Positions 7,155-60,670 of a stretch of DNA of 64,000 nt are shown piece by piece. Below the pieces are notes generated by a model. The model saw only the letters and a program-made list of their open reading frames with translations, was not told the origin of the DNA and ran no database searches. The DNA lies in NCBI GenBank assembly GCA_964016885.1, contig OZ024740.1, positions 135,408,001-135,472,000 of the forward strand, in the 5' to 3' direction. The stretch comes from Eledone cirrhosa (taxonomy: Eukaryota). The translations under genes and the position numbers were made by a program. Each line of letters opens with the position of its first letter. Within the stretch, counting starts at the first letter, position 1.

Positions 7155-7270
7155 TTTAACGTACGTTTCAATAGACATCAATTTGCCTAGATCTCGCTGC
7201 ATCTATAATATTATATAGTTAGTAGAGCATTCGACATCCAATGCACAATCGATTCCATATCATCAGAGAT
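7155..7270 (-). ncRNA. Hammerhead ribozyme-like motif in the PLE 3' pLTR
   Basis: Minus strand reads CUGAUGA - 90-nt imperfect hairpin - GAAAC GUAC GUU, with palindromic stem III ACGUACGU. Stem I is weak (ucu/aaa). AAUAAA follows 8 nt later. Confidence 0.55.
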
Positions 7271-7652
7271 TATGTTTACCGTACCAGAATGTTCAGGTTT
7301 TTATAGGAATTCATGTGAAGTTGAAGTAGAGAAGAAGGAGGATGTGACAAAGACGAGAGAGATAGGGGGGTTTTTCATGGTTGTTGAGGTAAAACAGAGG
7401 GGAGGATAAAATACGATAATGAAGTCTAGATATGGACTAGTCCAACTGTGTGTGTGCTAGGGAGATGGTAGACGTTGATAGGTTTATGATCTATGATAGA
7501 TGGAGGCAGGGGAGATTAGGCCGAGTGACTTGTAAAGTATGTAGGAGGAGATGTTGAATAGGGGAGATGTGGTCAATAGAAGGCATAGCAATAATCCATG
7601 GGGACAGATAGAGGAGGTAGAAGGAAGATAGAGGAAAGCAGAAGTCGCAGGA

Positions 7653-9969
7653 TCAAATCAAGCCAGGTTTGTATTTCGAGAACGTAGCCTTGAGTCTATG
7701 ATTGCAATATAGAGTCCGTTCCGTTCTGTTGTTGAGAAGAGTATAATTCGATTTTAGTATGTAAAATAGCTCCATATTGCATAATCGGCAGTAAGGCTGG
7801 CCTGCACGATATACGGAAGCACTAGAGAGTTTTGTCCATTTCAGAGTGTATTGCAGGTTACTTTCGCGCAACTGCCAAATTGTATTGGCTAAGGTAGTTA
7901 CGGAACGGTATTTGATGTTCTTCATCGAACTACGGTGTTGGTACCAATGAGATTTAAAAGTGGTAGAGGTACAGCCGATATAGTGCCATCTCCGGTTATC
8001 CGATTCAACGGTGCATTGATACACCATATTGGATTCCATGCATTTGTTATTCAGAGGGCAACGATCATGTAGGTTGCAGTTGCACTTATCAGCTCTTGTA
8101 GTATTATTATCTTGTACAGGTTGCATTAGGTTTATATGTGTGTCTGCTGCAGGAGGGTTTACATTCAGTGGTTGAGAGTTTGAGGAAGTGTTAACGTAGT
8201 TTGGGGTGCTTCGTGTGGATGTGCTGACTAATCGTTTGGAGTTAAGTTTTTTAATAATTAGATCGAGATTGGGTGCTGTAGAATATGAAAGCTTAATGGA
8301 CCTTAGATTTAGTATTTTAGCGTATCGATGTGCAGGAGGAAAATGTGTTTTGATTAAATTGAAGAAAAGTGAAGAAATTTTAGGAGATGTTGAGGCAGCT
8401 ACGATTCCGCTTTCTAGCTAGGTTGGGTTGTGTGCTTCTATTTCGACTATGCCTGTGCGGAAAGTGTATGTTGTGTATCGTACCTATATTATTGTTTATG
8501 CTAGTGCGTTGTGAGCCCTTATTTCTATATTGGTGTGCTGGATCTATGTACTCTATTTTGTCTTGGTATCCAGCCGCCTTAAGCGCGTTGTTATAGTAGT
8601 AAGCGTGCTCACTAAAGACCTGGGGGGTAGATGACAGGCGTGATATTCTAAGGGAGATGGCCCAAGGGATAGACCGTATAACCGAGGGTGGATGATTAGA
8701 TTTATGGTCAACATACATAATATTTTCATTAGATTTATGGAATGGGCGGATTTCCCCCGTCTCTAGATTAAATGTTACATCCAAGAAATTTGTTTCAGTC
8801 AGGTTGTACTCAAAAGTAATGCTAAAACCAAGACTGTTTAAAAATTCGCTAACTTGCTTACGTAATCTTTCTATTTTCTGGTTGTTTAGGTGTTTAGCTA
8901 AAAGGAGCGCATCGTCGCGGTAGATTCCCCCTTGTAGATTGCGGAATTTTTTCTCTAGTGCTTGAGCGATGAAGATGCTCACTACGTCTGTAACTTCGGC
9001 CGAATCGTTTGAGCCCATCGTGATATCAAAGAAAGATGGTCGATCTTTGCGCACCCAGTAGCTATCATCAAACTTAATTATGGTTTTTCTGGCCTCAAGG
9101 ATGATGCCTATTTCCGCGTCGGTTAGGTCAGAATTCTCTCCGGCAAACATTAGGGTCTTATGCAGGGTATCGGGTGATATGGAAGAATAGTAGTCGTTTA
9201 TGTCGAATTGGATAAATTTTGATTCATCCCTATCCTTGATATTACTAAACCAACATACCGCCTCCTCAGTATTTGCCCAGAGTTTTATGCCAGTTATCCG
9301 TTTTAACTGGGGGATTACTCTATCTAATATATATTTACTTACTCTACCTATATCCGATTTCGATGGGCATATTAGTCTAATCTAGGGGTTTGCATGGAAG
9401 TTGACTTTGTGGTCCTTTAAATTAAAGGATGGGGTCGCTGGAATTATTGGTTCTGTCCTGTCATCTATACCCAGGTTCTTAACTATTTTGTGTGCCTCAT
9501 TGTTAATATGTATAAGAGTAGATTTACCTGTTTTTTTGTACTTCTTGTGTAGTTCAGTACGGATGAAGTTATTATAGGTGTTTACATCTGGGGTGTACAC
9601 GTTGGATGTTTTATCGGCCTTAATGATAATCCCACTGGTATTATTAAGTTTGTGGACCAGAGCTTTGATGTTCTTTTGTAGTGTATTTTCCTTTCGGCAG
9701 TAAAATTTAACTCTCGTAATAGTTTTTTAGAAGGCTTGTTCAAAGGCGTCAAGAAGAGGGTTAGACGGAGGGTTTTTGCAGGATCTAAATCCATAAGATT
9801 GCGTATCTGAGTTGGACTCCTGGTTATTACAGCCCATGTTGAAATGAAAAGCACTCCATCTGACACGGCAGATAAAGTCATTGGTGCGTCGAATCATCCC
9901 CAAAGTATATTCTCTTTTATCCGGTACGGGTATGTTCCTAAGAGACATACCTATATGGTGCCTTTCCAT
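7653..9969 (-). pseudogene. PLE RT + GIY-YIG endonuclease ORF with premature stops and frameshift(s)
   Basis: Fragments 9727..9969, 9382..9600, 8380..9381 (open, RT) and 7653..~8400 (Cys-rich linker CNC..CPLNNKC, GIY-YIG, CRLC..CNH). TAG stops at 9727 and 9382; frameshift near 8400. Confidence 0.9.
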
Positions 9970-10212
9970 TCTTGGGTTGTAAGCTGATTTTGTTGCTCGA
10001 CAATGTAGGAGGAAGATAATTGGTTATGCACGAGTGCATTAAGATTTTCCAGGACACAGTGTTATGTACCGTGTAGGGGAAGGTCAGCTTACAACAGAGT
10101 GGTGCTCAACGAAATGCAGAAAATAGGTGTATATTCCAGTTTAGCTATACTCCGGGGCGTGTATAAAGAATCAAAAAGAACAGAAAGATGCAGTAAAAGA
10201 GATTTATTCGGT

Positions 10213-10328
10213 TTTAACGTACGTTTCAATAGACATCAATTTGCCTAGATCTCGCTGCATCTATAATATTATATAGTTAGTAGAGCATTCGACATCCAAT
10301 GCACAATCGATTCCATATCATCAGAGAT
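10213..10328 (-). ncRNA. Second copy of the hammerhead-like motif (5' pLTR)
   Basis: Same sequence as 7155-7270 at offset 3058. Confidence 0.55.
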
Positions 10329-10842
10329 TATGTTTACCGTACCAGAATGTTCAGGTTTTTATAGGAATTCATGTGAAGTTGAAGTAGAGAAGAAGGAGGA
10401 TGTGACAAAGACGAGAGAGATAGGGGGGTTTTTCATGGTTGTTGAGGTAAAACAGAGGGGAGGATAAAATACGATAATGAAGTCTAGATATGGACTAGTC
10501 CAACTATGTATGTGCTAGGGAGATGGTAGACGTTGATAGGTTTATGATCTATGATAGATGGAGGCAGGGGAGATTAGGCCGAGTGACTTGTAAAGTATGT
10601 AGGAGGAGATGTTGAATAGGGGAGATGTGGTCAATAGAAGGCATAGCAATAATCCATGGGGACAGATAGAGGAAAGCAGAAGTCGCAGGATCAAATCAAG
10701 CCAGGTTTGTATTTCGAGAACGTAGCCTTGAGTCTGTGATTGCAATATAGAGTCCGTTCCGTTCTGTTGTTGAGAAGAGTATAATTTGATTTTAGTATGT
10801 AAAATAGCTCCATATTGCATCTTTCTGTTCTTTTTGATTCTT

Positions 10843-10886
<44 letters not shown>

Positions 10887-11659
10887 TATCTGCTAATTCA
10901 TGAGAGCAGAGATTATATTCGTGAAGGGATTGAAGACTTGTCTTTCAAGTAGATTTTATTTATAGTAGTCAAAGATGCTGTTGTGTATCTCCAGGTGAGC
11001 TAATAACAAACTGTCATGCAGGTAGTCATCTAAATAACCATGAGTAACCTGCTTTTTCCAGTTATACCAGTAGGATCTTAGAAATAATTAATGCTTAGAT
11101 CGGCACAGTATATCAAATATATAGGTAGAAAATGTAAACTGAGTTGCTAAACAAGAGGAAGAGAGAGTGGAAAAGATGATATAAAAATGAATTTTCTAAT
11201 ATGACCCATCCCAGTACATGTTGTAAAGTGGTTAGTGTTAGGAACCCATGCTCCCAGTAAATGCTGTAAAGTGATAAAAAGAATTCCAGCTGTGTCCATC
11301 TTGTCTTTTTAGGGGTATTGAAGATGATAGTATGTGATTTGGTTGTTATTTCTATAAGGTAGACTGGACACTTAGGGGCTTCTGCATTGATTTGATCTTG
11401 AGGAAATGGTGGGTGTTACTCCAAAATTTATCCTTGTGGAATTACGAATAGCTATTTTATTGTACTTGGATAGAGAAACTATCAACTGGAATAGGTAAAG
11501 TAAATAAGATAGGTTCATGTGCTCTAAGAAGAGGTGAGTTTTGGGAGGTGTGTTAAATGGCTATGAGAAGCATTTTCACAGCCTTCCAACATACTTTCTA
11601 TTTCTTCAAAAGAGGACACTGTCTGGTATATCAATATTTACTTATCTTCAAGCCACATA

Positions 11660-12850
11660 AATTAATCTTATTTGCACACATGCCTTCTAGTAGGTTCTGT
11701 CAGAAGCAACTGTCTCCAGTTGATCTGGCTGGATCACCAAGCAAGACCAGCCAAGCTCAAGGATGTTATTAAACCATCTTGCTCTGGGTTGCCTGCCGGT
11801 TGGCTTTGCTCATAAAATCTGTCCACTGATTCTCTCCTGAGATATTGTAACCATATATTTGTAGTATCAGAATTGTGATCTCTTAATTCAGAGAAGTAGC
11901 AGCTCTACCTGGAGTGACTCTGATCTCTGAGCTACACACTCTATCAAGTAACGTTACTCCAAAAACCCTTCAGAGAAACCTCATGTCAGCCACTTGTATT
12001 TGCAATTGTATTCTTTCAGTTATTAACCACGATTCATGACCATAAGTAAGGGTTGGCTTGAATACCGAACTGAATATAGTGAGTTTGATTCTTACACCTA
12101 CCGCCCTTCTCCTGATGACCGAATTCTGAAGCTGGCACATTATTCCACCAGCTCCGTCAGTTTTTGCACTTAATTCAGTCTCCTGCCTTCCATCACTCTT
12201 GTACTTCTCCACCTGCTTCAGTGGAATTCTACTCACTCGCATTGTGCACTCACAGACTTCCTTTAGAGAATGAGTATCTTGGTCTTCAATGCACTGATTT
12301 TCATTCCAGCTATGCATCACCTGGCATCAAACCTATCACATGCATGCCAGAGATCACCTTTTGACAAGTTAAGTAATACCATGTCATCTTGATACCAATT
12401 CCAACCTGGCTGTCAATCCTGTTCATGAAGATTATGAGCTGGAGAGGTGACAGTATGCACCCTTGGCAGAGTCCACCAACATTGAACAGTTTCTATTTAT
12501 CCTCATTTATCCAAATACAACAGGGCAACAAGAAGCTGTCCTTCGATCCCATACTCCTGCAGAACCTTCCCCAACAAATCCCTTGGAATTCAGTCATATG
12601 CCTTTTCAAGGTTTATGAAACAAGCATACACCTCTTGGCAATACTCCCATGATTTTCTAAACACCTGTCACAGTGTGAATATTTGGTCGGATGTGCTGTG
12701 TCTGTGGTAAAAACCACACTTCATCAGCTAGCTTGGACTCAAAAATATCCCTACATCTCTTTGTCAGACACTTAGTCTAGACTTTGCTAAAGAGGTCCCT
12801 CTATAATTAGAGCAATCCCTCTTTTTGAAAATTGGGATTATCATTCTCGA
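11660..12850 (-). mobile_element. Decayed RTE LINE of a second family (no PHD insertion)
   Basis: Translated remnants GMKISALKTKIL..LKQVEKYK and KLTIFSSVFKPTLTYGHESW...DMRFL. Homologous to 37880-38357 and 47731-48560. Confidence 0.8.
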
Positions 12851-13275
12851 TTGTCATTGATAAGGTACATATAAATGATTTTATTGCATCTATTGCAGTA
12901 TTTTGGTGGTGTTATTCATACCACTCATCAATTTAGAACTTTTCTCAGACTGCCATTACTCACCTCATTGTAGCTACATCACTGGGTTGTGACAGTTTTT
13001 TTTAAAGCTAACAGCCAACACTACTGATTCTGCTAATTCATCATGTAATATTAAAAATAATTCATCATAATCATAATAAACTTCGAATAACAAATGATAA
13101 TTATGTTTTGTTTCGCCGTTCATACCCGAGTATAAAAAAGGAGAGTGGAGAGAGAGAGAAAGAAGTAAAGGTATAAAAGACACAACACAGAATTAACAAT
13201 ACTAACTAAAAATGTTTACATCAATATAACAAATCATCCTCTGGAAATTAGATATTGGTATGTGTGTGTATACAC

Positions 13276-13324
<49 letters not shown>

Positions 13325-14076
13325 CATCATCATCGTCGTTTAACATCCATCTTCCATGTTAGCATGGGTTAGACGGTTTTGTTCCATTTGATGAGGGAAT
13401 GGTCGGGAGACTGTCTCGCTTGCACAGAAGTGTCATATATCTATATATATATATATAAATATGTATACACATATACATATAAGCATATAAATTTTATTAA
13501 CGTTTTTTTTTTGTTTTTTTTAATAGCCTTGTATGGTCATCACTAGTTTCTTGAGATTTCAGTTTTTATAACCTTATAAATATTATGACCACCAGTTTAA
13601 TGTTTAAAAATACATACATACAAGAAAAAACATGTACAAACACATAAGCACACATGCTAATACACACACTCCCTTGTAAAGTTTTGTCAATTTGTATTTA
13701 ATATGAACAACAACAGAACTTCACCTCTTGCACACATTAGCCAATACTTTTAATACCCGACTGCATTCTCAATTCTTTTCCACTTAATGGTGCACATCCA
13801 ACATCAAATTCAACTAATTTCTTTTCAACTTCTTAAAGATATCCACACCTAATGCCCATATCTCATTATCGACTTGTATTAAAGTTTTTAGACATGCAAC
13901 ATACACACAGTTTGACCCCCCCCCCCCTTTTTTTTTAAAATCCTAAATAAAAATGCTTTTCATGGAGAAAAGAATTTAAAAAAAAAAATCTGTTTTAAAA
14001 TTATTGATCAATGTTTTTTAGTTGCAGATCAGCCCTGTTAGTCAAGTGAATAGGTACAATTAACAGATACATAGAT

Positions 14077-15959: not shown

Positions 15960-16961
15960 TTCTGAGGACTTTCCCAGGAATAACTTGAATTAGTCTGGAA
16001 GCTTAAACAACAGAATATAGAACACTCCTTATCCTGGTCCATAATTTGCTCAGCCCAGCCATATAACGGCAACACTGGTGTATGTAATTTGTGTATAACT
16101 GAAACCTTTAATATTATTAGAGGTGGCCCCCTATTAATCAATAGGAGAGCGGACCTTTTCAGCAACTGCCAACATAGAACCTCGAAAACCTTCCGTAGGA
16201 TTTTTGGAAAGTAACCTACCACTAACTCCTCCCTCTCTACCTTAGCCATAGAGTTCTCTCAATTAGCAAAAAACAGACAATCACACACTCAGGTAGTTAG
16301 ACAGCGAAGATCGTTTGCGCGCTTACAAACGGTACTCGGCCTGTTTCCACAGAGTTCTCACAGCTGAGTGCACATTAGAATACCTAGTTAGTAAATAGTT
16401 AGAAAGATTACACACTCAGGTAAGACCGATTATGCGCATTCACCATTACTTTGGAATACTCTAACCATTGGGTTCTCTCAGTTAGGATATAGCTAGGCGT
16501 ATTACATACTCAGTTAAGACTAATTACGCTATCTATACATAACTCTACACACAGTACCCGGTTTCTTTTGACACTGAGTTCCCACAGTTATTACTGGTCA
16601 TGTTCCTATCGATTGAACACTACACTAGGTTTTGATCCGTGATCATCTAACCTGTGAGTGAACGCCGTTAATTTTCTCCCTCATATCAAGGATTTGAAGA
16701 CAATTCATTTTCACCTGACGAGATCAGTGATAATCGATCATGGCTACGCGATCGATCTATCTCTTATTGAAACATGTGTCATGATTAAAATGATTGGAAA
16801 ATTATACCATGCCTCCGGATCTTTATTTTGATACAAATACTCCGCTTTACATCATCTAGCTGTTCCCATATATGGAATTGGAGATATACAAAAGCGTGGA
16901 GAACTTAATATTGCTAACAAAAATTTTATTGGACCGTTTGACACAACCAATAATACACCTT

Positions 16962-16965
<4 letters not shown>
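15960..16965 (+). mobile_element. 5'-truncated Penelope-like element (second family): GIY-YIG C-terminus + 3' UTR
   Basis: 15987-16214 translates as ELVWKLKQQNIEHSLSWSIICSAQPYNGNTGVCNLCITETFNIIRGGPLLINRRADLFSNCQHRTSKTFRRIFGK*, aligning with the end of ORF 7653..8126 (absent from the ORF track). A hammerhead lies downstream and (TA)n on both sides. Confidence 0.88.
16706..16790 (+). ncRNA. Type I hammerhead ribozyme motif
   Basis: ucac CUGACGA (16715-21) - 47-nt stem II containing the aucgauc/gaucgau hairpin - GAAAC AUGU GUC (16769-80) auga. The first stem I pair is a C-A mismatch. AUUAAA follows. Confidence 0.65.
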
Positions 16966-16993
<28 letters not shown>

Positions 16994-17245: not shown

Positions 17246-19168
17246 TCATCATCATCATCACCATCGTTTAACGTCCATGTTCCACGCTTGCATGGGTTTA
17301 GATGGGAGTTTTCCCACTTGAGGCAAGAGTGGTTGTCTTGCTCGCATAGGACTGTCTGGCGGATTTTCTACAGCTGGATGCCCTTCCTAACACCAACCAC
17401 ATTTACAGTGTGGGGCTGGGAGTTTTTACCGTGTTGCCTACATGGCCACATTACAGCGTGGACTGTCTGGCGGGTTTTCTACAGCTGGATGCTCTTCCTA
17501 ACACCAACCACATTTACAGTGTGGGGCTGGGAGGTTTTTACCGTGTTGCCTACACGGCCACATTACAGCGTGGACTGTGTGTTTTTTTGTCGTGACACCT
17601 ACACGATCTCATTTGTTTCGGCCTGGATGTTGTGGCACCAACATAACTTTACATTGAAAGGGGCGGTGTGGATGGGGGGGGGGGGGGGGGAGGTGTATTT
17701 TGTTAGAGATGCCTACTAACTGTAGTAGGTTTTACTTTGTATTTAGGTAAGGCAGGTCTTCTCTATTACTGAGTACCGCCAAAGATCTTGGTCCAGTAAC
17801 ATTGTCTTGGAGAGGTGTAAGTGTGTGAGGTCAGAATTTATCAGGTCGTCCCAGGTTTTTCTGGGTCTGCCTATTCCGTGGCTGCCATCTATCTTTATTG
17901 CCCTGCACTTTTTTATACAGCTGTCGTCTTTCATGCGCATCACGTGACCATACCAACGTAGCCTTCTCTCGAGTAAACAACATCTGATCCCTCTTATTTC
18001 TAATTTTTCCCTTAGTTCGTTTATGCTTTGCCGTTCACATATATTACTATTACACATCCAGCGGAGCATGCAAGCTTCGTTCCTCTCTAGTCTGCGTATA
18101 TCCTCTGCACACAATGCCCAGGTCTCACTGCCATGCAACATTGCTGTTCGTATGCAGGCATCATACAACCTGCCTTTCATTTTTAGGGAGAACCCTTTAG
18201 CGGCTAATAGTGGTATAAGCTCTCTGAACTTTTTCCATCCAGTTCTGACTCTAGCTACTGTACTTTCAGAGCACCCTCCCCCACTGCTTATTTTGTCACC
18301 CAGGTAACGGAAGCTGTCCACTATTTCTATAGAACCCTCTGCGCAATTGAAAGAGCTAGTATTTTGTGGGCACTTGCTGCTACTTATTGCACCAGAGCAC
18401 CGGCCACATGTAAAATCTATGTTCTTAGTTAGCTTACCTGTGATCCCACTACATACATCTTTTATGCACCCATACTTTGCATTTGGGACATAAAATGGAG
18501 TTTCTACCTACGCCTTTGCTACACACTGAGCATGGCCATTTCCCGGAAGGGACTGGCGCCTTATTTTCTTTCCTACAAACTAGAACTTTAGTCTTAGCCA
18601 GGTTAATTTTAAGGCCTTTTGATTCTAGGCCGTGCTTCCATGTTTGGAATTTCTTCTCTAGCTCGGCCATTGATTCAACTATGAGCGTTAGATCATCTGC
18701 ATATAGGAGTTCCCTTGGGCAGCCGGTCTTGAACTCCACTGTTATAGCCTGAAGGGCAATAATAAATAGTAGGGGGCTAAGAACAGAGCCCTGATGAACA
18801 CCAACTTTTACGCTAAACTCTTCACTATATTCGTTGTTAATTCTAACCTTGCTGACTGTTTCTTTAAACATGGCTTGTATAGCTCTCACAAGCCATTCGT
18901 CAACACCTAGTTTTCTAAGAGCCCACCAGATAATGGAACGGGGGACTCTGTCGAAGGCTTTCTCCAAGTCGACAAAAGCTAAGTATAGGGGTTTACTTTT
19001 AGCTAGGTACTTCTCCTGTAGTTGTCGTACAATGAAAAGAGCGTCTGTGATACTTTTGCCTGACACAAACCCAAACTGCATTTCATCTAGATCAATTCTC
19101 TCTCTGATTAGTTGCGCTATTACTTTTTCCGTGACCTTCATGATCTGGTCGATTAATTTAATGCCTCT
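17246..19168 (-). mobile_element. 5'-truncated RTE-PHD LINE copy with (GAT)n tail
   Basis: ORFs 18449..19141 and 17743..18321 are nearly identical to copy 1. A 4-bp acat duplication at ~18451-18458 shifts the frame. The 3' UTR has a 110-bp unit x2. Confidence 0.95.
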
Positions 19169-22599: not shown

Positions 22600-23240
22600 A
22601 ATTACAAAATATGAGGAAATAATAGACAAAAATATATCTATTCTTTGTTGAAAGTCCCGACTGCAGTTTCACCAATCCATGTGCACTGATTTCTGCACTT
22701 TAAAAGTGTATCATCACTGTGAGGTTGATACGGCTTATCAGAAGGGTAGTAAGGTGGACAGTGAGCGAATAACGTATTTGCTAGAAAAAGCAGTTAATAC
22801 ATTCGTGGTTAACTCTACCCTTCTGTGATCGCTGTATCATGTGTTTATCTCTCTCCTTGCCTCTCGAGAAATTCTCACTTGCTACGAAAGAAACAATCCT
22901 TTTTTTTTTACCACTGTATCACGTGTTAATCTCCCCCTCCACCTCTGAGACTTTCTCATTTGCTATAAACGCATCAGGAAACAGTCCTTTTTTCGGAGGG
23001 GTCTCTTGATAAGCCGTATCAACCTCACAGCGATGATGCACTTTTAAAGTGCAGAAATCAGTGCAAACGGATTGGCGAAACTGCAGTCGGGACTTTGAAG
23101 AAAGAAGAGGTATATTTTTGTCTATTATTTCCTCATATTTTGTAATTTGATAAATAGCTCTGATTATGGAGTTGATTTAATTATTTTAGTTATTTTAACT
23201 CTTTTGGTCATCGAGCAAAACTTGTTAAAGCGGACACCAC
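22597..23240 (+). mobile_element. Fold-back PLE-derived mini-element (inverted arms 22597-22740 and 23007-23150, tail to ~23240)
   Basis: The ~144-bp inverted arms contain a hammerhead, and the insertion sits between (TA)n runs. Confidence 0.75.
23001..23093 (+). ncRNA. Type I hammerhead ribozyme with U3-A8 core variant
   Basis: gucuc UUGAUAA gcc..(64-nt stem II)..ggc GAAAC UGCA GUC gggac. Stem I is 5/5 paired (one G-U), stem II closes gcc/ggc, and stem III is the palindrome ACUGCAGU. Confidence 0.8.
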
Positions 23241-26423: not shown

Positions 26424-27550
26424 TTACTTTAACTTTGACCTGATTTCAATGGAACCCTTGAGCTTCATAGAGTCTGGCTGAATTTTTGTAAGATGTAGCC
26501 AGTGATCTCCACTAGCTAACTCTTTGTCGTGAGGCTGAATTTTCGTAAGATGTAGCCAGTGATCTCCATGTGTAATTACATTGTATTGGTTGCAAGACTT
26601 ACTGTGCAGTCTGGAAACAGCACCAAACCTCCTCTCAACTAGGTATGAGATTGGAAAAGGTAGAGCAAATCTCTTAGCCTCTGCTTGTAGGAATGGAAAT
26701 CGACGCTGAATTTCCTCTTGCATCCAAAAAAGGGGTTCACTTATTTTGGGAAATCTAATTTTGATCATGTCATCTGCTTGAAGTTCAATGAATTCTTCCT
26801 GAAATTTAACGTCCAAATCGTTGATGGTAGCTATGAAGGGATCTGCTATCCACATTGTGATGTCCATCAGCAAACGGTCAACAAACTGTTCTCTCATGTT
26901 GTCTTGTAGTGCACGGAGGTGAGCGGTATAAATTTGGAGTTGGTCATCGCTTACAATGTTTTGAACATTGGCGACACTAGGAAAATTATAGAATTCCCAT
27001 CAACAAAGATTCCTTTCGATGACATTCAATTTGGCCAGGAATGTTTTCACAGCATTCCTTGCTTTAAGCAAAGTGATCTTCTTTCCCTGCAAAGCCATAA
27101 TGACGCTATTGCATTTGTCAAAGATGTTAGCGAGGCAGGCGCAGTCTTGCCTCACATCGAGGGTTTTCTTGTACAGTTCTGTGTTGCATCCTCGAAGAAA
27201 CTCAACGATAGAGTCGAACAGTTTAAAGAAGTGAATAAGGCACTTGCTCTTTGAAAGCCACCTCATTTCAGTATGAAGGAGCAACTTGACGAATTCTTCG
27301 TCATTATCTTGGCACAGTTGCCGAAAAATTCGTTTATTGAGGGAATGGTGTTTGATAAAATTGATGACATCAATGGCCACCTGCAAGGACTTGCTCAGCG
27401 TCTCACTGAGTTTCTTCGCAGCCAAGTGTTGTCGATGAATGACACAATGAACAGCAAATACAGATAGATTTTCTCTCTTCAGAAGAGTGATGAAACCCTT
27501 ATGTTGGCCGACCATTGCTCTTGTGTCGTCCGTAGCACATGATACAATGT
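26424..27550 (-). pseudogene. hAT transposase remnant (catalytic and dimerization regions)
   Basis: IVSCATDDTRAMVG, VHCVIHRQHLAAK (CxxH), LLLHTEMRWLSK and PFPISYLVERRF. Frameshifted, N-terminus missing, with a 57-bp duplication giving GDHWLHLTKIQP twice. Confidence 0.88.
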
Positions 27551-27790
27551 TGTATGTAGTCCTAGATGTATGTATTACCTGCTTGTGTGTTGTATGTGGT
27601 CCTAGATGTGTGTATTACCTGCTTATGTGTTGTATATGGTCCTAGATGTGTGTATTACCTGCTTATGTGTTGTATGTGGTCCTAGATGTGTGTATTATCT
27701 GATTATGTGTTGTATGTGGTCCTAGATGTGTGTACTATCTGATTATGTGTTGTATGTGGTCTTAGATGTGTGTGCTACCCGCTTCTGTGT
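27548..27790. repeat. 40-bp minisatellite, 6 units
   Basis: tgttgtatgtggtcctagatgtgtgtattacctgcttatg recurs at 27548, 27588, 27628, 27668, 27708 and 27748. Confidence 0.95.
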
Positions 27791-30396
27791 TTTTTCTTTT
27801 CTTTTTTTTTGTGTTTGTAATATTATTTATACAATAAGGAATAAAATGGATCTACATAGTGTTAACTTGTTACGGTTGAGTCAATAATATCAGACATGAA
27901 ATATATTGTTATTGGTGAAGGAAAGACAAGATTCTAACTGGCCGCGCTCAAAGTGTCCTTGACTCAGTTGACTGTGGGTTTTTTCCATTTTTAAGATCTC
28001 AATTGCCGGTTAATGTCTAGACACGCCTGCAGACCTGCTTACAGCTGCGGTCAGACCATAGTTATGCTGTCTGCATGCACATTCTAATGCATTCACACTG
28101 GCTGTCTCAGAGACATACAAATATGGCTTATAAAACTTACCAAAGTAAAGAGCCTTCCAGTGCCCCCCCCCATTCCCCCGACTCCCCCTTGCTCCCCCCC
28201 CTCCCGGAGTTGCAAAACGCCCTCTGGGGGGTGCATATGCCCCCCATTGAGAACGTTTGCTCTAAACGACACTTAAAACATTTTAAATATCAAAATATTA
28301 AAACTTCATAAATATATTCTCCACTCATGAGAATTTCAAAACTACACCATGTAAACATAGTGTGTTGATAACTTACCTTGGCCTATAAACAGGGTTTGGA
28401 TTTTTGCCTATTTTTCAAGACATAAAATAGGGGGTTGGCTTATATTTGAGTATATATGGTAATCCCATTTGAAAACTGATGCACTGAAAAACTTCACCCT
28501 TTCACTACCATATTTCTAATGTAAACACTGCTTATTATTTTAAAATAACTTTGGAAATAATCAAGAATTTGAAGGGTTTGCGTAAATTAACGTTTTTCAT
28601 CATTAAGCTGGGGAACCAGAAAGATTCATACATAAAATGATGAAATATTTTTAGATAACATAAACATTTTATAACAAACAGTTTTGTATGGTATAACCAA
28701 TGGTGGTTCCAAGTATATTGTAAGAGTTAATCAAACTCAAATTGACAGATATAAACAAGATGATTGCATTTCAGAAGATTTGTCAGACCATAATTCTAAA
28801 TTTAAATCAATGTCTTGTCAATGGTTGAGTCATCCCTGTAAAGTCAACAATATAATTACTTGGGGAACATATGTAAACAAGATGTGGACCCCCAGTCCAT
28901 TTGAGTGGTCAGTAGCCTTTCAGCTATATTGCTGGTGGAAATTATGCTTCCCATCTCATCTCTTTTTTGGCCTGCTGTCATTCTGCCACCAAATATAATG
29001 GCCCTTTTGAGTCCTTGAGTTTGAGACCCCTGGTGCACCCAATAACAACTATTTAGAATATATAGTTCATTACTATTAATTATTTAATGGGTACCAGAAT
29101 CATTAATAGCTAAGCTTATAGTAACAAGATTTGGGCAAGTGCAATAATAAGGTTGGAACCCTACTTTCTGGAATTCAACTTCTGCCTCTGTCACCTTCAA
29201 CTTTCATCATTTTAATACTGGAATATTTATTCAATTAACTCTACTAGGTAAGAGTAAAGTGTATCAAAGGCCCATCAGATCAGAGCTTATCCTGGTCTCA
29301 TTGGCATTTAGCAACTGAGAGTACAACACTCTCTTCCTGGACATGACAAGAGTTTGTTACAGGGTTAACCACCAATTGCTGCTAGCACTCATTTTCTTCA
29401 GCTGAGTGTACTGGAGCAATTTGAAATAAAGTGTTTGGCTCAAGGATATGTGTCACTCCATCTGAGAATCAAACTAACAGCCTTACAATTATAGGCCCAA
29501 CATATGCATTCATTAATCAACTATATTACTCAGTCCTAGTCATAAGATTTTAATATTTCAAAATATAGCATAAACTGTCTTATTTTCATTTAACAGTTGG
29601 GTACAAATAGTTTGCTTTAGGGTAATTTTATTGTATAATACTCAAGTTCATTGCATGTCAGTTTCGTCAATTAATTCATAGATCCAGGAATAAAAATTGT
29701 AGAAGCTTACAGGATTACTTTTAACTTTCATCTACATTTTTGTGAGTGAAATTCAAACTATTTATTATTGCTGTTTAACACCAGATCAACCCTCATAAAG
29801 CTGGCCTATGATTATAGATGTTCAAACCATGACCATCCCATATTTTTTAGTGTCTCTCAGAATGACATAAACTTGTTTCCTTCCATGTTTTAAAACAGTA
29901 GTGTGATTTAAAGAGAATTTGAATACCGTTTCTAGCAAGTCAAATGATTATACAGAGGCACCTTCAAATTATTTTGTAATCTTATATATATTTATTTCAA
30001 GATCTATGTCCTTCTTTACCTATTAAATATAGTCAGAAGTTTTTTGAATAATGTCATTCTTTACTGATACAACACAGCCCAGCATGAATATTTTTAAAAA
30101 TTAGTATACAAAAATAAAGAAATATATATCTTTAAAGCATATATAGTCTTGCTTTGAAATATAATTTACACTCCAAGATATAAGCAAAGTATCTTATCCA
30201 GTGTAAACTGACACATTTTCCATATGCCTCAACAGTATCATGGTATTGGAATTAACACTAAGTTAAGCGTTAAAATAATTAAGTAATATACATTTATTGG
30301 ACTATAAAATTAAAAAAATATTCAATAATTAAAGCGTAAATGAGGTGAAATATTCATCCAGTTGAAACATTTTTCTTTTTCTGTGTTGGTTCTTAA

Positions 30397-53003: not shown

Positions 53004-53080
<77 letters not shown>

Positions 53081-53081
53081 G

Positions 53082-53418
53082 AAGGCACATGGCTTAGTGG
53101 TTAGAACATTGGCCTTGCAATCGAAAGGTTGTGAGTTCAATTCTCAGACCGGGTGATGTGTTGTTTCCTTGAGCAAGACACTTTATTTCACATTGCTCCA
53201 GTTTACTCAGCTGTAGAAATGAGATGATAGGGACTGGTGGTCCCTATCATTCCACTGCAAAGTGGTCGTGGAGGTGCCACGGCAAAAAAGCACCCAGCAC
53301 TCACTGTAAATGAGGTTGGTGTTAGGAAGGGCATTCAGCTGTAGAAATCAAGCCAGAGTCAGTTCCCGTCCCACCCTTGCAAGCAGGGAAAAAGGGGATG
53401 TAAAATGATGATGATGAT
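53082..53418 (+). mobile_element. Full-length family A SINE
   Basis: tRNA-like head, central tccttgagcaagacact, and RTE-shared tail gttggtgttaggaagggcat...gatgtaaaatgatgatgat. Confidence 0.9.
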
Positions 53419-53707
53419 ACATTGAGTTCTTCATGCAGACTAGACCCCCACAACTTACCGTGGATATTTCTGTGTATATATAAATAAATATATATTAGGT
53501 TCTGCAAGAAATGCTTAGGATTATCATGAATGCAGTAATGGTTAATTACTACTCTAGATAGAGTTGATGTGCGGTGAGGGGTTACTCAATGAGTTACAAA
53601 AGAACAGTTAAAGAAACGTGGTTTCCGATTCTTCTATATTCCGGAGTGTAGATAAAGAATAATTAATAAAACAGGTAGACATCATAAAATGGTAATTTAT
53701 TCCTAGT

Positions 53708-53825
53708 GTTTACAAATGTTTCGTTAGTAGTTACACGGCCTAGTCATGCTATATACAAATTGGTAGTTGTTAATTTGCAGATACTCAATTTTCAAATGCT
53801 GTTCGTACCACCAAATCTTCAGAAT
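53708..53825 (-). ncRNA. Hammerhead motif in PLE pLTR
   Basis: auu CUGAAGA - 93-nt stem II (uuggugg/cuacuaa) - GAAAC AUUU GUA aac. Stem I is only 2 bp in this copy. Confidence 0.55.
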
Positions 53826-55484
53826 GAATGGCTGAATCATAGTTTCTTTATATTTCTTAAAGGGAGTAATTGGGGAAGATAGAGTAGAAAAAGAAGAGAG
53901 AAAGAAAGAGAGAGATAGATGTAGGGGTAGGAGAAATGGGAGAGAGTGGTTTGAAGAATACAGATAGCTTAATCTAAATGTTGTGATAGGGGTCCAACAA
54001 GTGGTTTTATTATACTGCTTACTCTCAAAGTGACAACTTAGGCATTGTGTTGATATTATCAAGTTTGGAATTATTTATTGCTACAGAGAGCAGGTTAATA
54101 GATGTATGGAAGGAGGGAGATAGACAGAGAGCGCGAGAGAGAGAGAGAGGGGGGACAGAAAAAAGTTAAGAGAAGGGGAAGGAAAGGTGATATACACTGA
54201 GTTGATAGTTGTAGTTTGCTGATCGTACTTAAGTATCTATTTATTATGATAAGCAAGGTACTGGTTAGTAGTGGAGGGGGGGGGGGGATATAGTTAGGAA
54301 GTAAGTATTGAGTGAAATTAGTAAGTGAGAAAGTGGTGTAATAGTCTTGGGTTCAAATTATGTTAAGTTACTTTTATAGTGAGAAAATTTAGCCTTCAGT
54401 TTGTGGTTGCATTCGATTCTGTCATTTAGTAAATTGTTTTTAGATTTTAAGATATAAAAAAGTTCAAGGTTGCATAATCCACTCCAATATGCACTAGCGC
54501 TGGATAATTTATCCCATTTTAGGGTGAACTGCCGGTTGTATTCACGGAGTTGCCAGATCTTATTAACGGTGTTCAGGATGTTTAATCAAAAATCGATGAC
54601 GATACCAGCGTGATTTAAAGGAAGTAGTGGTAGACCCGACGTAATACCATTTCTGGTCGTTTGATTCGACAGTGCATTGATAAACAATGTTGTTCTCCAG
54701 GCATTTATTCTTCAATGAGCATCTCTCGGGTAGGTGGCCATTACAGTTTTTGTTATGGGTAACAACTGTACCATGGATAGGTTGGGATAACAGTACCAGT
54801 GGGTTGTGTAATACTTGTCTCCCATTTGGTGGTTGGGAAGTTGATATTACGTTATGCCCATCTGTGTCTAAAATATTTTGTTTTGTAGTGTTGTTTAATA
54901 ATCGCTTTATGGTGCAGTGAAGTATGATAGCTTAACAGTCTTAGAGTTTAGAATTTTACTGTATTTATGGGAATTAGGGAAGTGCTTGTTAATTAACTTA
55001 AAGAATAAGAGATAGTTTTGTACTATCGAAGCAGATCAGCAAACTATCAACTCGGTGTATATCGCCTTTCCTTCCCCTTCTCTTAACTTTTTTCTGTCCC
55101 CTCTCTTTCTCTTTCCCTCTCTTTCTTCCCCTCTCTCTTCCCCTCTCTCTCTTTCTTTCTCTCTCTCTCGCTCTCTGTCTATCTCCCTCCTTCCATACAT
55201 CTATTAACCTGCTCTCTGTAGCAATAAATAATTCCAAACTTGATAATATCAACACAATGCCTAAGTTGTCATTTTGAGAGTAAGCAGTATAATAAAACCA
55301 CTTGTTGGACCCCTATCACAACATTTAGATTAAGCTATCTGTATTCTTCAAACCACTCTCTCCCATTTCTCCTACCTCTACATCTCTCTCTCTCTCTCTT
55401 CCTTTCTTTCTCTCTTCCTTTTCTACTTTATCTTCCCCAATTACTCCCTTTAAGAAATATAAAGAAACCATGATTCAGCCATTC

Positions 55485-55602
55485 GTTCTGAAGATTTGGT
55501 GGTACGAACAGCATTTGAAAATTGAGTATCTGCAAATTAATAACTGCCAATTTGCATATAGCATGACTAGGCTGTGTAACTACTAATGAAACATTTGTAA
55601 AC
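55485..55602 (+). ncRNA. Hammerhead motif in the inverted pLTR
   Basis: guu CUGAAGA (55488-94) - 93-nt stem II - GAAAC AUUU GUA aac, with 3-bp stem I and AAUAAA 9 nt after the cleavage site. Confidence 0.65.
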
Positions 55603-55689
55603 ACTTGGAATAAATTACCTTTTTAAGATATCTACCTGTTTTATTAATAATTCTTTATATATACCCCCCCCCCCCTCCCCAATATATCG

Positions 55690-58600
55690 TATACGCGCCT
55701 GCAGGTTCTCTCTCAATCCCTTCCTCTACAAATATAAAATAAACCTGTTGTGAGCTACGAAACTCAGAATTTGTCAATCCCTTATTCTTGGCTACTTCGC
55801 TTGCTTGCTCTTCTGTGAAATGTAATGTACAAATCTTATTTTTCTCATTTCTCCATGTTCCCCAGTCCATTCATCTATCTGTATCATATCGTCCAGAATC
55901 CAATCTTTTCTTTTTCAATGCTATTCGATAATTCTGTCTGATTGTTCAAAATAATCTTCTTGTATTTTAAAATCCCATGCTTCTGTCAGACCCCCGAGAA
56001 CGATCTTCTACTTGTATTTAAATTTTTACTCTTATTACTGTTATATGCTCGTTAATTATCGTCGAAATTCTAGGATTTTATTTTATAAAATAACCTTCTC
56101 GCTAACTACCCCTGATCCCCTCCCCTCCTCCCCCACTCGCCACCATTATTATTTGGATCAATCATAATTCAGTGGCCTACGATATCACTTCTTAAGTTTA
56201 GACCTGGTTGCCTTTTGATATGATGGATGGACTACAGAATTCTGAAGAGTCTGAAAAATCTGGACACTCAATGACAATGCCAAAGATAAAGACAAATTCA
56301 CCTCATTCTGCCGGACGAGAATGCAAGGACTCCTCCTCTTTATTTCGGCCGTGGATGGCTAACATAACCCCATCTCCCTCACACCCACCAAACACAATAC
56401 AAAATTTCAGAGTTGGTACCATGAATGTAAGCACCTTAAAAGGTCGCTCTAACGAGGTTGTAGATATGCTTGAACGTAAGGAAGTTGATGTTTGCTGTAT
56501 TCAAGAGACCAGGTGGAGGGGTGGGTCTGCTAGATTCATTGTGGGTAAAAAAAACGATGCTATAAGCTTTTCTAGGTGGGAAATGACAATGGGCTGGGTG
56601 GAGTAGAAATCATGCTAGCAGAAAAATGGGTAGATAAGATAATAGACGTAAATAGACTAAACGACAGAATAATTAAAATAAGACTTGTCCTAAATAGAAC
56701 TACTGTGACAATAATATCTGCGTATGCACCCTAATCCGGACTGCCTGGCGTTATAAAAGACAAATTCTATGAGTCGTTAATGCTCACTACCTCGCAAATA
56801 ACCGACAGTGACTACATAATTATTGCTGGCGACCTAAATGGTCACGTTGGACAACATTGTGACGGCTATGACGGAATCCTTGGAGGCTATGGGTTTGGTA
56901 CTAGAAATGTGGAAGGCTCCAGAATCCTGGAATTCTGTGACGCAAATAACCTAACTGTCTGTAACACTAACTTCAAAAAACGAGACAATCACTTGATCAC
57001 CTACAGATCAGGGGAACACACCAGTCAGATAGATTATATCCTTACCAGAAGACGTGACAGACTGTCGGTTGTAAAAACTAAATCCTTCCCCATGAAGAAT
57101 GGACCTCCCAACATAGCTTCATAGTTAGCGAGCTCATAGTCAGGACGAGACATACTCGACAACAGAGGAGGACTATCCTCAGAAGAAAAATATTGAAGTT
57201 AAAGGACCCCACAGCCAGTAATAAATTTAAAAGCATATTACTTGATGCTTTTGACAGTAAGGAAGAGCAATTAGAGTCGTACAATATAGAGGAACAGTGG
57301 GAATTCCTGAAAGCTAACCTGCTGAAGGCGACAGATGAAATCTGTGGCTGGAGCAGACCTATAGGCAGGAGGAGAGTAACTTGGTGGTGGAACAGCAAGG
57401 TGGAGTCAATCAAGGCCAAAAAGCAGGCTTGGAAAGTATGGCAGGATGGGGGAAGTAGAGAAGACTATCAAGTGGCCAGGAGGGAAGCTAGGAAACAAGT
57501 GTACTTTGCAAGAAGGGAAGCAGAGGAAAGAAAGTTCAAGCATGTTCTACAACACGAGGACCAAAAACGTGAGGTGTTCAGGATTGTTAGGCAATGTGTC
57601 AAGGAAAACCGTGATATTGTCGGAGAGAAGTGTGTCCGTAATGATGATGGTGTACTTGGCATCACTGATGCTGATAAGAAGGTAGCTTGGAAGTGTCACT
57701 ACGAAAGGCTACTAAATGAAGAGAATAAATGGGAGAAAGATAGTCTCCCCCACATTGATCCAATAGAGGGACCAGCAGTGCAAGTTGAAGGTAGTATAAT
57801 AAGTAAGGCAATCAAAGATATGAAGACGGGCAAGGCGGCTGGGGCTTCGGAAATGGTTGCTGAAATGCTGAAAGCATCTGGAACGGTGGGACACACCATG
57901 GTCACCCGGATAGTAAACCAAGTCATACAGAATGGGGTCGTACCAAAGGACTGGCGTAGCAGCATCATCATTAACTGCTACAAGGGTAAAGGAGAAGTCC
58001 TAGATAGGGGAAACTATAGAGGCATTAAATTAATTGACCAGGTCATGAAGGTCACAGAAAAAGTAATAGCGCAACTAATCAGAGAGCGAATTGATCTAGA
58101 TGAAATGCAGTTCAGGTTTGTGTCGGGTAAAAGTACCACAGACGCTCTTTTCATTGTACGACAACTACAGGGGAAGTACCTAGCTAAAAGTAAACCCCTA
58201 TACTTAGCTTTTGTTGACTTGGAGAAAGCCTTTGACAGAGTCCCACGCCCCATTATCTGGTGGGCTCTCAGAAAACTAGGTGTTGATGAATGGCTCGTGA
58301 GAGCTATACAAGCCATGTATAAAGAAACAGTCAGCAAGGTTAGAATTAACAACGAATATAGTGAAGAGTTTAGCGTAAAAGTTGTTCATCAGGGCTCTGT
58401 CCTTAGCCCCCTACTATTTATTATTGCCCTTCAGGCTATAACAGAGGAGTTCAAGACCGGCTGCCCATGGGAACTCCTATACACAGATGATCTAACGCTC
58501 GTAGCTGAATCGATGGCTGAACTAGAGAAGAAATTCCAAACATGGAAACATGGAAGCATGGCCTAGAATCAAAAGGCCTTAAAATTAACTTGTCTAAGAC

Positions 58601-59798
58601 TAAAGTTCTAGTATGTAGGAAGGAAAATAGGGCACTAGTCCCCTCTGGGAAATGGCCATGCTCAGTGTGTAGGAAAGGAGTAGGCAAAAACTCCATTTTA
58701 TGTCCCAAATACAAAGTATGGGTGCATAAAAGATGTAGTGGGATCACAGGTAAGCTAACTAAGAACATAGATTTTATCTGTGGCCGGTGCTCAGGTGCAT
58801 TAAGTAGTAGCAAGTGCCCACAGGATACTAGCTCATTCCATTGCCCAGATGGTTCTATAGAAATAGTGGACACCTTCCGTTACTTGGGTGATAAAATCAG
58901 CAGTGAAAGTACAGTAGCTAGAGTCAGAACGCGATGGAAAAAGTTCAGAGAGCTTATACCACTATTGGCAGACTATAAGTTCAAAGAGCTTATACCACTA
59001 AAGGCAGACTGTATGATGCCTGCATACGAACAGCAATGTTACATGGCAGTGAGACATGGGCATTGTGTGCAGAGGATCTACGCAGACTGGAGAGGAACGA
59101 AGCTTGCATGCTCCACTGGATGTGTAACGGCAAAGCATAAATTAACTAAGTGAGAAATTAGGAATAAGAGGGATCAGATGCTGTTTACTCGAGAGAAGAC
59201 TACGTTGGTATGGTCACGTGATGCGCATGAAAGATGACAGCTGTATAAAAAAGTGCAGGGCGATCAAAATAGGCGGTAGCTACGGAGTAGGCAGACCCAG
59301 AAAAACCTGGGACGACTTGATAAATTCCGACCTTACACACTTACCTCTCCCAGACAATGTCACTGGACCGAGATCTTTGGCGCTACGCAGTAATACAGAA
59401 GATTCGCTTTACAAAGCGAAACCTACAGTCAATAGGCACCTCTTAACCAAAATACACCCCCGTCCCACTACCTCTACCCCCACCTCCATCTATACCACCC
59501 CTTTTGATGTAAAATTATGTTGGTACCACAACATCCAGTCCTCAATAAATGAGGTTGTGTAGGTGTCACAACAAAAAAAACACAGTCCACGCTGTAATGT
59601 GGCCGTGTAGGTAACATGGTAAAAACCTCCCAGCCCACACTGTAAATGTGGTTGGTGTTAGGAAGGGCATCCAGCCATAGAAAACCTGCCAGACAGTCCT
59701 ATACGAGCAAGACAACCAATCTTGCCCCAAGTGGGACAATTCCCGTCTAAACCCATGCTAGCATGGAAGATAGACGTTAAACGATGATGATGATGATA
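55690..59798 (+). mobile_element. Near full-length, decayed RTE-PHD LINE (sense to the host gene)
   Basis: ORF pieces 56208..56606, 56780..57124, 57193..58566, 58542..59153 and 59218.. are colinear with copy 1, with several frameshifts and stops. (gat)n tail present; 5' boundary approximate. Confidence 0.93.
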
Positions 59799-59885
59799 AT
59801 TTCGAAATATTTACTTCTGCATTCACAGATTGATTTTTTTAGTTTCAGAAGATCCCGTTAAGGGTGAAAGCAGCGATTCTTTGCT

Positions 59886-59945
<60 letters not shown>

Positions 59946-60333
59946 CCTCATTCCTTACTTTCCATCTTCGCTCCTTCTATAACTTTCCCATCCCCTCACT
60001 TTCACTCTCAATTCCGCTTCCATCTGTTTTTCTCTAGTCACTCTCCCCATCTTTCCCATCCCTCTCTCTCTATTAAGACACCCTATCTTTCCCATCTTTA
60101 TTCACTCTCTGTACATCCAACATGCACAAATATCTAGACACAGTATCATATACATTATATATACATTAAAGCATTATAAAACACTCTAATTTCACCCTGC
60201 CACACATGTATATCATCTTCATAGTCATCATGATCATCATTTAACATCCATTTTTTTCCCCCTTATTTGCATTATATATATATATAGGTATTTATCTATC
60301 TGTCTATCTATCTATCTATCTGTTTATATATAT

Positions 60334-60670
60334 ATATCACATAAGAAACGGAGAATCAGTGTTGCGACGAATAAAATTTATTAGATGTATTACAATCGTT
60401 TCTCTGGCGACCAGCTCGAGGCACGATCAATGCAATGATTGAACCTAACTCTGAAATCGCAAGATCCTCAGATACGTCTCGATTCTACGAAGCAGTTTCC
60501 AAATATCCAGAGCTGGTCGCCAGAGAAACGATTGTAATATGTCTAATAAATTTTATTCGTCGTAACACCGATTATCCGTTTCTTATGTGATATTATACTC
60601 TGCTCTGTAAGAGCATCGAGTGCTCAAATGGCCTACCGCTTACGGACGCTTTAAGCATCCCACACCAATT
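60334..60670. mobile_element. Fold-back PLE-derived mini-element (arms 60334-60417 and 60510-60593; tail ending ..accaatt)
   Basis: ~84-bp inverted arms with a hammerhead inside. It ends accaat+(TA)n, like the 6961 PLE terminus. Confidence 0.75.
60384..60478 (-). ncRNA. Type I hammerhead ribozyme
   Basis: gacguau CUGAGGA ucuugcga..(62 nt)..ucgccaga GAAAC GAUU GUA auacauc. Stem I is 6/7 paired and AAUAAA follows. Confidence 0.8.

What the first reader, a model, noticed from the sequence alone, without database searches (positions are those of the whole stretch)
7155..60478. Five unrelated PLE families share an atypical hammerhead design: giant stem II, minimal stem III, adjacent poly(A) signal
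Seen: hammerhead cores at 7155/10213(-), 16706(+), 23001(+), 53708(-)/55485(+) and 60384(-). All are type I with GAAAC-N4-GUH (a 2-bp, often palindromic stem III). Stem II regions are 90, 47, 64, 93 and 62 nt, unrelated in sequence but folding as long imperfect hairpins. Four of five have AAUAAA/AUUAAA within ~10 nt 3' of the cleavage site, and two families have a U-pyrimidine mismatch at 10.1-11.1. Established: PLE pLTRs carry minimal hammerheads that can work as dimers through palindromic stem III, typically with short stem II. Inference: this is a structural subclass that ordinary descriptor searches would miss, possibly coupling self-cleavage with 3'-end formation or offering an RT-binding hairpin.
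Basis: partly seen in the sequence, partly recalled or inferred. Interest (0 to 1): 0.75.

Follow-up and report, generated by a model that had tools for sequence, protein, structure and literature searches.

The report
Long-armed hammerheads of Hydra retrotransposons
These are hammerhead motifs (predicted self-cutting RNAs) at the ends of Penelope-like jumping genes; their second arm is stretched into a long rod that keeps its pairing and a small recurring loop across diverged families, likely a docking site for the element's own protein, though cutting and binding are untested.

Summary
All seven cores are present as described; about 0.1 long-stem matches are expected by chance per window. 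Four of the five families (A, B, D, E) are Hydra-clade Penelope-like elements; C has a U3-A8 core and no linked ORF. Long stem II is genome-wide: about 39,000 matches with 61-122 nt against 2,027 control matches. Hydra elements from other sources have 10-31 nt (57 of 58). The arms are not unrelated. A, D, E and many other families share a 2x1 loop, X-A-N-U/A-G-X'. One clade carries it twice, 9-10 bp apart, amid compensatory changes. Rfam and published descriptors miss these motifs. AAUAAA/AUUAAA after the cut site is real, but equally frequent in short-stem Hydra hammerheads. The U-U mismatch, palindromic stem III and U3-A8 core are already published. Best reading: a dimer-dependent hammerhead whose arm is likely a binding site for the element's RT/endonuclease (0.5); no RNA data were available. 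This scan noted the two-loop rod before on another piece of this genome (e1-10323020). New variant of a known kind.

The parts
6957..10846 (-). Family A: near-complete Hydra-clade PLE (short inverted piece 10813-10846, upstream pLTR, ORF, downstream pLTR, ~150-nt tail) inserted in (TA)n
7653..10023 (-). RT + C-terminal GIY-YIG ORF of family A, broken by two stops and a frameshift; shows DKT, YRDD, CxCx5C, CxxC..E..N..CxH and no CCHH
   Evidence: criteria from PMC8557442 section 11
7154..7270 (-). Hammerhead A1: core 7266-7260, 90-nt stem II region 7259-7170, palindromic stem III octamer, predicted cut 3' of 7158; this copy has a substitution in stem I relative to most family members
7186..7243 (-). 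Two X-A-N-U/A-G-X' loops in stem II of A1: proximal 7243-7240 with 7188-7186, distal 7232-7229 with 7198-7196; 9 bp apart
7145..7150 (-). AAUAAA 7 nt after the A1 site (predicted poly(A) signal)
10212..10328 (-). Hammerhead A2 in the upstream pLTR, identical to A1, 3,058 nt away on the same strand; AAUAAA at 10208-10203
15965..16964 (+). Family B: 5'-truncated, internally deleted Hydra PLE (endonuclease end 15984-16211, pLTR, tail)
16711..16789 (+). Hammerhead B: 47-nt stem II region without the loop module; AUUAAA at 16784-16789
22998..23096 (+). Hammerhead C: U3-A8 core 23006-23012, 64-nt stem II region without the module, no hexamer; part of a ~590-nt ORF-less unit
22659..22741 (-).
53696..53827 (-). 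Hammerhead D1 (93-nt stem II region, two modules) with AAUAAA at 53701-53696
54361..54931 (-). Broken Hydra-type GIY-YIG remnant of the family D copy
55483..55614 (+). Hammerhead D2 in the inverted arm; modules at 55512-55515 with 55569-55571 and 55524-55527 with 55560-55562; AAUAAA at 55609-55614
60377..60478 (-). Hammerhead E: 62-nt stem II region, one module (60451-60448 with 60416-60414), 7-bp stem I, AAUAAA at 60382-60377
60510..60672 (+). Inverted partial E copy (3' half of the hammerhead plus ~75-nt tail) ending in (TA)n

Best explanation
These are type I hammerhead motifs in the pseudo-LTRs of Hydra-clade Penelope-like elements, predicted to cut only as dimers, whose stem II has grown in this genome's lineage into a 45-116-nt rod that keeps its pairing and a recurring 2x1 loop (X-A-N-U opposite A-G-X'), likely a binding site for the element's own RT/endonuclease protein. 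Shown: the cores, the Hydra linkage of A, B, D and E, the compensatory changes, and the loop (twice, 9-10 bp apart, in the clade that includes A and D; once in E-like and 99-116-nt families; absent in B and C). Predicted: stem III has one Watson-Crick pair as a monomer but a self-complementary octamer, so two hammerheads of one tandem transcript would pair through it. Inferred: the protein would bind the loops (two loops about one helical turn apart would face the same side), select the element's RNA, assist folding and cutting as reported for the Anolis element, and start reverse transcription at the fixed points 45-65 nt and 130-200 nt downstream. The adjacent A(A/U)UAAA is likely a poly(A) signal of Hydra elements generally. 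It would lie on the 3' product of cleavage, so uncut RNA would be polyadenylated and cut RNA would not.
For: Unconstrained flanking positions pair in 109 of 170 cells, against 54-67 when slid and a mean of 83 in 5,000 column shuffles (none reached 109). A hand count on the 7-family tree gives 9 double substitutions at 4 pairs. Unsupervised RNAalifold on 13 E-like sequences recovers the loop, with U-A in 13 of 13. A model built from 7 non-window families aligns family A through both loops (35.9 bits). Loop present in 25 of 40 long-stem representatives, against 2 reversed and a mean of 6.5 shuffled; at family level 26 against 5 flipped; 17 against 4 and 2 under a stricter rule. The two-loop pattern has 19,087 genomic hits against 906 control. 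The distance from the loop to the core varies (12, 14-20, 24-28 or 38-43 nt on the 3' strand), which fits a free-standing binding site better than a fixed tertiary contact. Protein-assisted cleavage and internal RT initiation are shown for another PLE (PMC11167929). Octamer self-duplex energies are -9.8, -6.0, -11.1, -2.9 and -5.8 kcal/mol, with monomer pair probability 0.001-0.19. Among single-letter variants of AAUAAA (20 of 63 families, 2.7 expected), only AUUAAA (9, 3.1 expected) is clearly enriched.
Against: There is no RNA, cleavage or binding data. B, C, the 94-98-nt families and all short-stem families spread without the loop, so it is not required for mobility, and it was not found in their flanks above controls. 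Loop letters are invariant partly by construction of the anchors. The families are related, and 3 of the 17 came from a list found with the loop pattern. The alignment was fitted to the structure. In the Anolis element binding was suggested at the RT start site, not at stem II, and cleavage was not needed for insertion in vitro. Stem I is weak in A (3 proximal pairs in most copies, one of them broken in the window copies). Many families use GUA or GUU triplets. The 105-116-nt families lack the hexamer yet have the same kind of fixed end.
Confidence: 0.5

Rival explanations
1. The loops are RNA-RNA docking sites: they would receive stem I, the A-rich strand after it or a partner molecule, and replace the usual loop 1-loop 2 contact to speed up cleavage without protein.
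For: Natural hammerheads depend on stem I-stem II contacts (PMC3088659). In the two-loop clade the proximal loop sits at a fairly constant 14-20 nt from the core, and the hexamer starts further out in long-stem families (mostly 7-9 nt) than in short ones (3-4 nt).
Against: Loop distance differs widely between clades (12 to 43 nt). Stem I is only 3-7 bp and would not reach the distal loop. The hexamer is absent in loop-bearing 99-116-nt families and present in loop-less short ones.
Confidence: 0.2
2. The arm is read by a host factor (export, localisation, dsRNA-binding or editing protein, or 3'-end machinery), or the loops break up a long duplex to avoid editing or silencing.
For: Long stems are confined to this genome's radiation in my sample: 57 of 58 hammerheads from other sources have 10-31 nt. 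The same loop is kept beside endonucleases only about 36-38% identical (A or D-like vs E), as expected if the partner is one conserved host protein.
Against: Avoiding duplex sensors would not require fixed letters and a fixed orientation (26 against 5 flipped). No host factor was identified.
Confidence: 0.18
3. The arm is a tolerated expansion. Selection only keeps stem II closed at its base, and the loops are inherited remnants without a function; the ribozymes may be nearly inactive.
For: Families with 11-20-nt stem II also reach thousands of copies (12,404 hits against 1,283 control). Some single copies fold no better than shuffles. PLE hammerheads cleave poorly in vitro (PMC4209133).
Against: Compensatory changes occur 20-30 nt away from the core, and loop letters are kept while the neighbouring pairs turn over at a median stem II alignment score of 0.39 per position.
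Confidence: 0.12

Closest known systems
Hammerheads of Hydra-clade C-terminal EN+ PLEs (Craig et al. 2021, PMC8557442, section 11 and File S2; includes Hydra-1_Obim)
   Same: Type I, sense strand, in the pLTR 3' of the ORF; short palindromic stem III; U-U or G-C at the stem II base; (TA)n insertion; same protein motifs.
   Different: The Hydra rows of File S2 have stem II regions of about 10-26 nt (by eye); here 45-116 nt with conserved internal loops. The closest long case in that file is a Chlamys element (PLE-X1_sMoe, about 54 nt, marked as deviating).
Minimal hammerheads of metazoan PLEs (Cervera and de la Pena 2014, PMC4209133)
   Same: Dimer design through palindromic stem III, U3-A8 core variant, U-rich 5' and AU-rich 3' flanks.
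   Different: 'Larger than usual' helix II there means 7-8 bp; the descriptor is capped at 7 bp plus a 10-nt loop. No internal loops, and no poly(A) signal named in the parts I read.
Anolis Poseidon element PAc (Frangieh et al. 2024, PMC11167929)
   Same: Hammerhead upstream of two fixed genomic ends (pLTR end and tail); a model for protein-assisted cleavage.
   Different: Different clade; short stem II (cut site 26 nt from the start of stem II); no loop module described.
Metazoan non-LTR retrozymes (PMC7229834; bioRxiv 10.64898/2026.07.22.740005)
   Same: Family C is an ORF-less ~590-nt unit found as more than one unit length, as expected of a non-autonomous PLE derivative.
   Different: Dispersed, truncated and often inverted copies rather than long tandem arrays; long stem II; U3-A8 core.

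Membership tests
Type I hammerhead ribozyme | Core CUGANGA (or U3-A8) ... GAAA ... NUH in type I order | tested here: met
   7 of 7 sites
Type I hammerhead ribozyme | Stems I and II close the junction | tested here: met
   Basal stem II pairs 2-5 are canonical in 15-17 of 17 families with several pair types; stem I 76% paired with changes on both sides at all 5 pairs (fitted alignment); weak in window copies of A
Type I hammerhead ribozyme | Self-cleavage at NUH | not testable with these tools
   No assay possible; no RNA run was available
Type I hammerhead ribozyme | Match to an Rfam hammerhead model | tested here: not met
   No hammerhead among 34 matches at E<=5; likely due to the long insert
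PLE dimer-type hammerhead | Minimal, self-complementary stem III | tested here: met
   Predicted self-duplex for A, B, C and E, weak for D; loop palindromic in 23 of 37 long families
PLE dimer-type hammerhead | Short helix II (3-8 bp) | tested here: not met
   47-93 nt in the window, up to 116 nt elsewhere in the genome
Hydra-clade PLE | RT with DKT and RWK motifs, C-terminal GIY-YIG | tested here: met
   Family A has DKT and YRDD, with RWS in the window copy; RWK in sister families. For B, D and E only the endonuclease was inspected motif by motif
Hydra-clade PLE | CxCx5C linker, no CCHH, CxxC and CxH around the conserved E and N | tested here: met
   A, D-like, B and E endonucleases
Hydra-clade PLE | pLTRs, inverted 5'-truncated copies, tail, insertion in (TA)n | tested here: met
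Hydra-clade PLE | RT phylogeny with named reference elements | not tested
   Only endonuclease trees with unnamed environmental relatives were built
Hydra-clade PLE (family C) | Linked ORF | tested here: inconclusive
   No ORF was contiguous with C in the copies inspected from 30 loci; a nearby CCHH-type endonuclease proved separate
Poly(A) signal | A(A/U)UAAA above chance | tested here: met
Poly(A) signal | Poly(A) addition 10-30 nt downstream | not testable with these tools
   No RNA data

The most novel reading that the evidence does not exclude
In this lineage the hammerhead has become a protein-gated switch. A recurring A-N-U/A-G loop, doubled one helical turn apart, is the recognition element of a telomerase-related reverse transcriptase. 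Binding licenses dimer cleavage, and cleavage competes with the adjacent poly(A) signal to decide whether a transcript becomes mRNA or the (possibly circular) template. Tens of thousands of such motifs are invisible to current ribozyme searches.
Probability: 0.25. Interest if true: 0.8.

Novelty: new variant of a known kind. Interest (0 to 1): 0.55.

Why it matters
How PLE proteins recognise their RNA and what pLTR hammerheads are for are open questions. A small, covarying, sometimes doubled loop inside the ribozyme gives a precise target for binding and mutation tests, with natural controls (two-loop, one-loop, no-loop and short-stem families) in one genome. It also shows that descriptor searches undercount hammerheads badly here: among matches to one strict pattern, spacers of 61-122 nt (39,232 hits, 2,027 control) outnumber those of 8-29 nt (12,404 hits, 1,283 control). 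The Hydra-wide A(A/U)UAAA right after the cut site is a second testable lead.

Tried and rejected
RNA evidence: no RNA holder was listed. Contigs of three runs from one sample only confirm high copy number and ends in (TA)n. Site 41803-41712(-) matched only a looser pattern (6-nt loop) and was not followed up. About 32 of the first 100 hits with 30-60-nt spacers (counted by eye) look like LINE RT coding sequence, so that bin is not used for headline counts. The MAFFT alignment of 17 families misplaced 4, and RNAalifold on 11 sequences gave only 9 pairs and -0.03 kcal/mol, so anchored and model-based alignments were used instead. In the first tree family B had a wrongly linked endonuclease, corrected; the link of L465 to the 82-nt family was dropped. 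A CCHH-type endonuclease near C and E copies proved to be a neighbour. The idea that short-stem families carry the loop in a flanking hairpin was not supported. Viral contigs gave no Hydra relatives. Of 95 environmental Hydra loci, 58 gave a hammerhead call; the one long call (69 nt, L403) lies inside the ORF and was treated as false; most of the other loci end soon after the ORF or show short core spacing, and none gave a long call. Likeness of the loop to S-turn, UA-handle or tetraloop-receptor motifs was considered from memory only and did not fit letter for letter. Two relevant papers (Lunse et al. 2017, PMC5785218; Arkhipova et al. 2017, PMC5850863) were not available, and supplementary file 1 of PMC4209133 could not be searched; long-stem examples could be there.
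Full report
Observation. A motif scan finds six C3-G8 hammerhead cores with GAAAC-N4-GUH at the stated places. The seventh, at 23006-23088, has the U3-A8 core. Stem II regions are 90, 47, 64, 93 and 62 nt, the hexamer follows in 4 of 5 families, and the base of stem II is U-U or U-C in A and D. The genome-wide backwards-pattern control predicts about 0.1 such match per window. Rfam reports no hammerhead among 34 matches at E<=5.

Context. Family A is a near-complete PLE, with two identical hammerheads 3,058 nt apart around a broken RT plus GIY-YIG ORF. Its DKT motif, CxCx5C linker, missing CCHH, CxxC/CxH motifs and (TA)n target are the published marks of the Hydra clade (PMC8557442 section 11). 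D carries a Hydra endonuclease remnant. B is linked to a Hydra endonuclease about 1.4-1.6 kb upstream in 6 other copies, and E to one about 1.9 kb upstream in 3 copies. C is a roughly 590-nt unit without an ORF that occurs as more than one unit length, likely a non-autonomous derivative. The organism was not determined; earlier notes of this scan suggest an octopus relative.

Scale. In the 3.0-Gb genome the strict pattern gives 12,404 hits with 8-29-nt spacers (control 1,283), 16,156 with 30-60 (2,672, inflated by a LINE coding match), 20,360 with 61-91 (976) and 18,872 with 92-122 (1,051). Hits can overlap, and other stem III lengths were not counted. From the loci fetched, 306 distinct hammerhead candidates clustered into 106 groups; 75 were kept after a first filter and 63 after a second. 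By contrast, 95 Hydra loci from metagenomes and MAG bins gave 58 hammerhead calls, 57 with 10-31 nt and one doubtful 69-nt call inside an ORF. The Hydra rows of Craig et al. File S2 are also short. The long arm therefore looks lineage-specific in this sample.

The arms are structured and related. Across families a 2x1 internal loop recurs, X-A-N-U opposite A-G-X'. In 17 families, including A and D, it occurs twice, separated by 9-10 bp (range 8-12 nt per strand). With anchors chosen by sequence alone, the loop-1 closing pair is U-A in 10 and C-G in 7, and the pair outside loop 2 is U-A in 9 and C-G in 8, with no mixed pairs. Free flanking positions pair in 109 of 170 cells against 54-67 when slid and a mean of 83 in 5,000 shuffles. 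Seven of these families with an endonuclease form a clade with SH-aLRT 100; a hand count on that tree gives 9 double substitutions at 4 pairs. A covariance model from 7 non-window families aligns A through both loops and scores D, E and B mainly through the core. Its fitted alignment shows 85.7% paired cells against 62.1% shuffled (biased by fitting). Unsupervised folding of 13 E-like sequences recovers a single copy of the loop. Overall 25 of 40 representatives of 55 nt or more hold the loop, against 2 when reversed and 6.5 in shuffles. The two-loop 3' pattern has 19,087 genomic hits against 906. B, C and several other long families lack the loop. Caveats: loop letters are fixed partly by the anchor rule, families are related, and 3 of the 17 came from the loop-pattern list.

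The other two traits are not tied to the long arm. A(A/U)UAAA begins 0-15 nt after the site in 6 of 15 short, 4 of 11 medium and 19 of 37 long families here (shuffle means 0.9, 1.0 and 3.7), and in 16 of 48 environmental Hydra hammerheads (mean 2.9). AAUAAA and AUUAAA are the enriched forms, as expected of a poly(A) signal; Cervera 2014 noted only an AU-rich flank. In the visible part, copies end at two fixed points, about 45-65 nt and 130-200 nt past the site, never at the site or in poly(A). This matches the two RT start sites shown for the Anolis element and gives no direct evidence for coupled 3'-end formation. The 10.1-11.1 mismatch is seen in 13 of 17 two-loop families and 21 of 48 environmental ones are U-U; it is published.

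Mechanism. Shown: sequence, linkage, covariation. Predicted: dimer dependence, since the monomer C15.2-G16.2 pair has probability 0.001-0.19 while the octamer self-duplex is stable except in D; in A the two hammerheads share a strand and could pair in one transcript. Inferred (0.5): the loops bind the element's protein, which would select and fold the RNA and start copying just downstream. The variable loop-to-core distance and the doubling at about one helical turn favour this over RNA-RNA docking (0.2), a host factor (0.18) or neutral growth (0.12).

Literature. Seven full-text searches found no description of PLE hammerheads with stem II of this size or of this loop; 'long helix II' in PMC13725137 means 6-8 bp. 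What I saw: PMC4209133 main text parts 1-2 of 4, passages, and supplement 2 (part 2 and a search); PMC8557442 passages, section 11 and supplement parts 1, 2 and 52 of 59; PMC11167929 passages and section 3 part 2; bioRxiv 10.64898/2026.07.22.740005 parts 1-2 of 5; passages only of PMC7229834, PMC6765202, PMC3088659, PMC13725137 and PMC2377424. Lunse 2017 and Arkhipova 2017 were not available; the latter used relaxed descriptors according to Craig et al., so prior notice of long loops cannot be excluded. This scan had already noted a two-loop long-armed Hydra hammerhead elsewhere in this genome and long arms in other genomes; my reading was written before that look-up.

Verdict. Real and non-random: a new structural variant of the known Hydra/PLE hammerhead with a conserved, covarying internal loop. 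Activity and function are untested. Interest 0.55.

Noticed in passing
window 53-4078(-), 17743-19168(-), 56368-59562(+), 62633-64000: Four copies of a LINE with endonuclease, RT and a PHD finger directly after the RT (Pfam; repeats).
   Followed up: no
L193:733-3222(+), L194:4029-6518(-): Uninterrupted 830-aa Hydra ORF of the 116-nt family, with hammerheads about 6.5-6.7 kb apart, implying an unusually long 3' UTR for a clade described as under 3 kb.
   Followed up: partly
L436/L461, L448/L462, L450/L463: Family E has about 1.9 kb of non-coding sequence between the ORF end and the hammerhead.
   Followed up: partly
L123, L131, L198, L335, L146, L337: Core variants CCGANGA (U4C) and UUGANAA (U3-A8) occur in several separate Hydra families, both short and long stem.
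   Followed up: partly
L259 (family C unit): The ORF-less unit begins within stem III of the hammerhead and runs more than once around, compatible with a circular or tandem template.
   Followed up: partly
L421-L435: Hydra PLEs sit in contigs of bacterial genome bins, likely host-animal DNA binned with symbionts.
   Followed up: no
L337, L290: A short-stem U3-A8 family sits tail to tail beside E or B copies, sharing (TA)n target tracts.
   Followed up: no
window 27508-27827: Tandem array with a 40-bp period.
   Followed up: no
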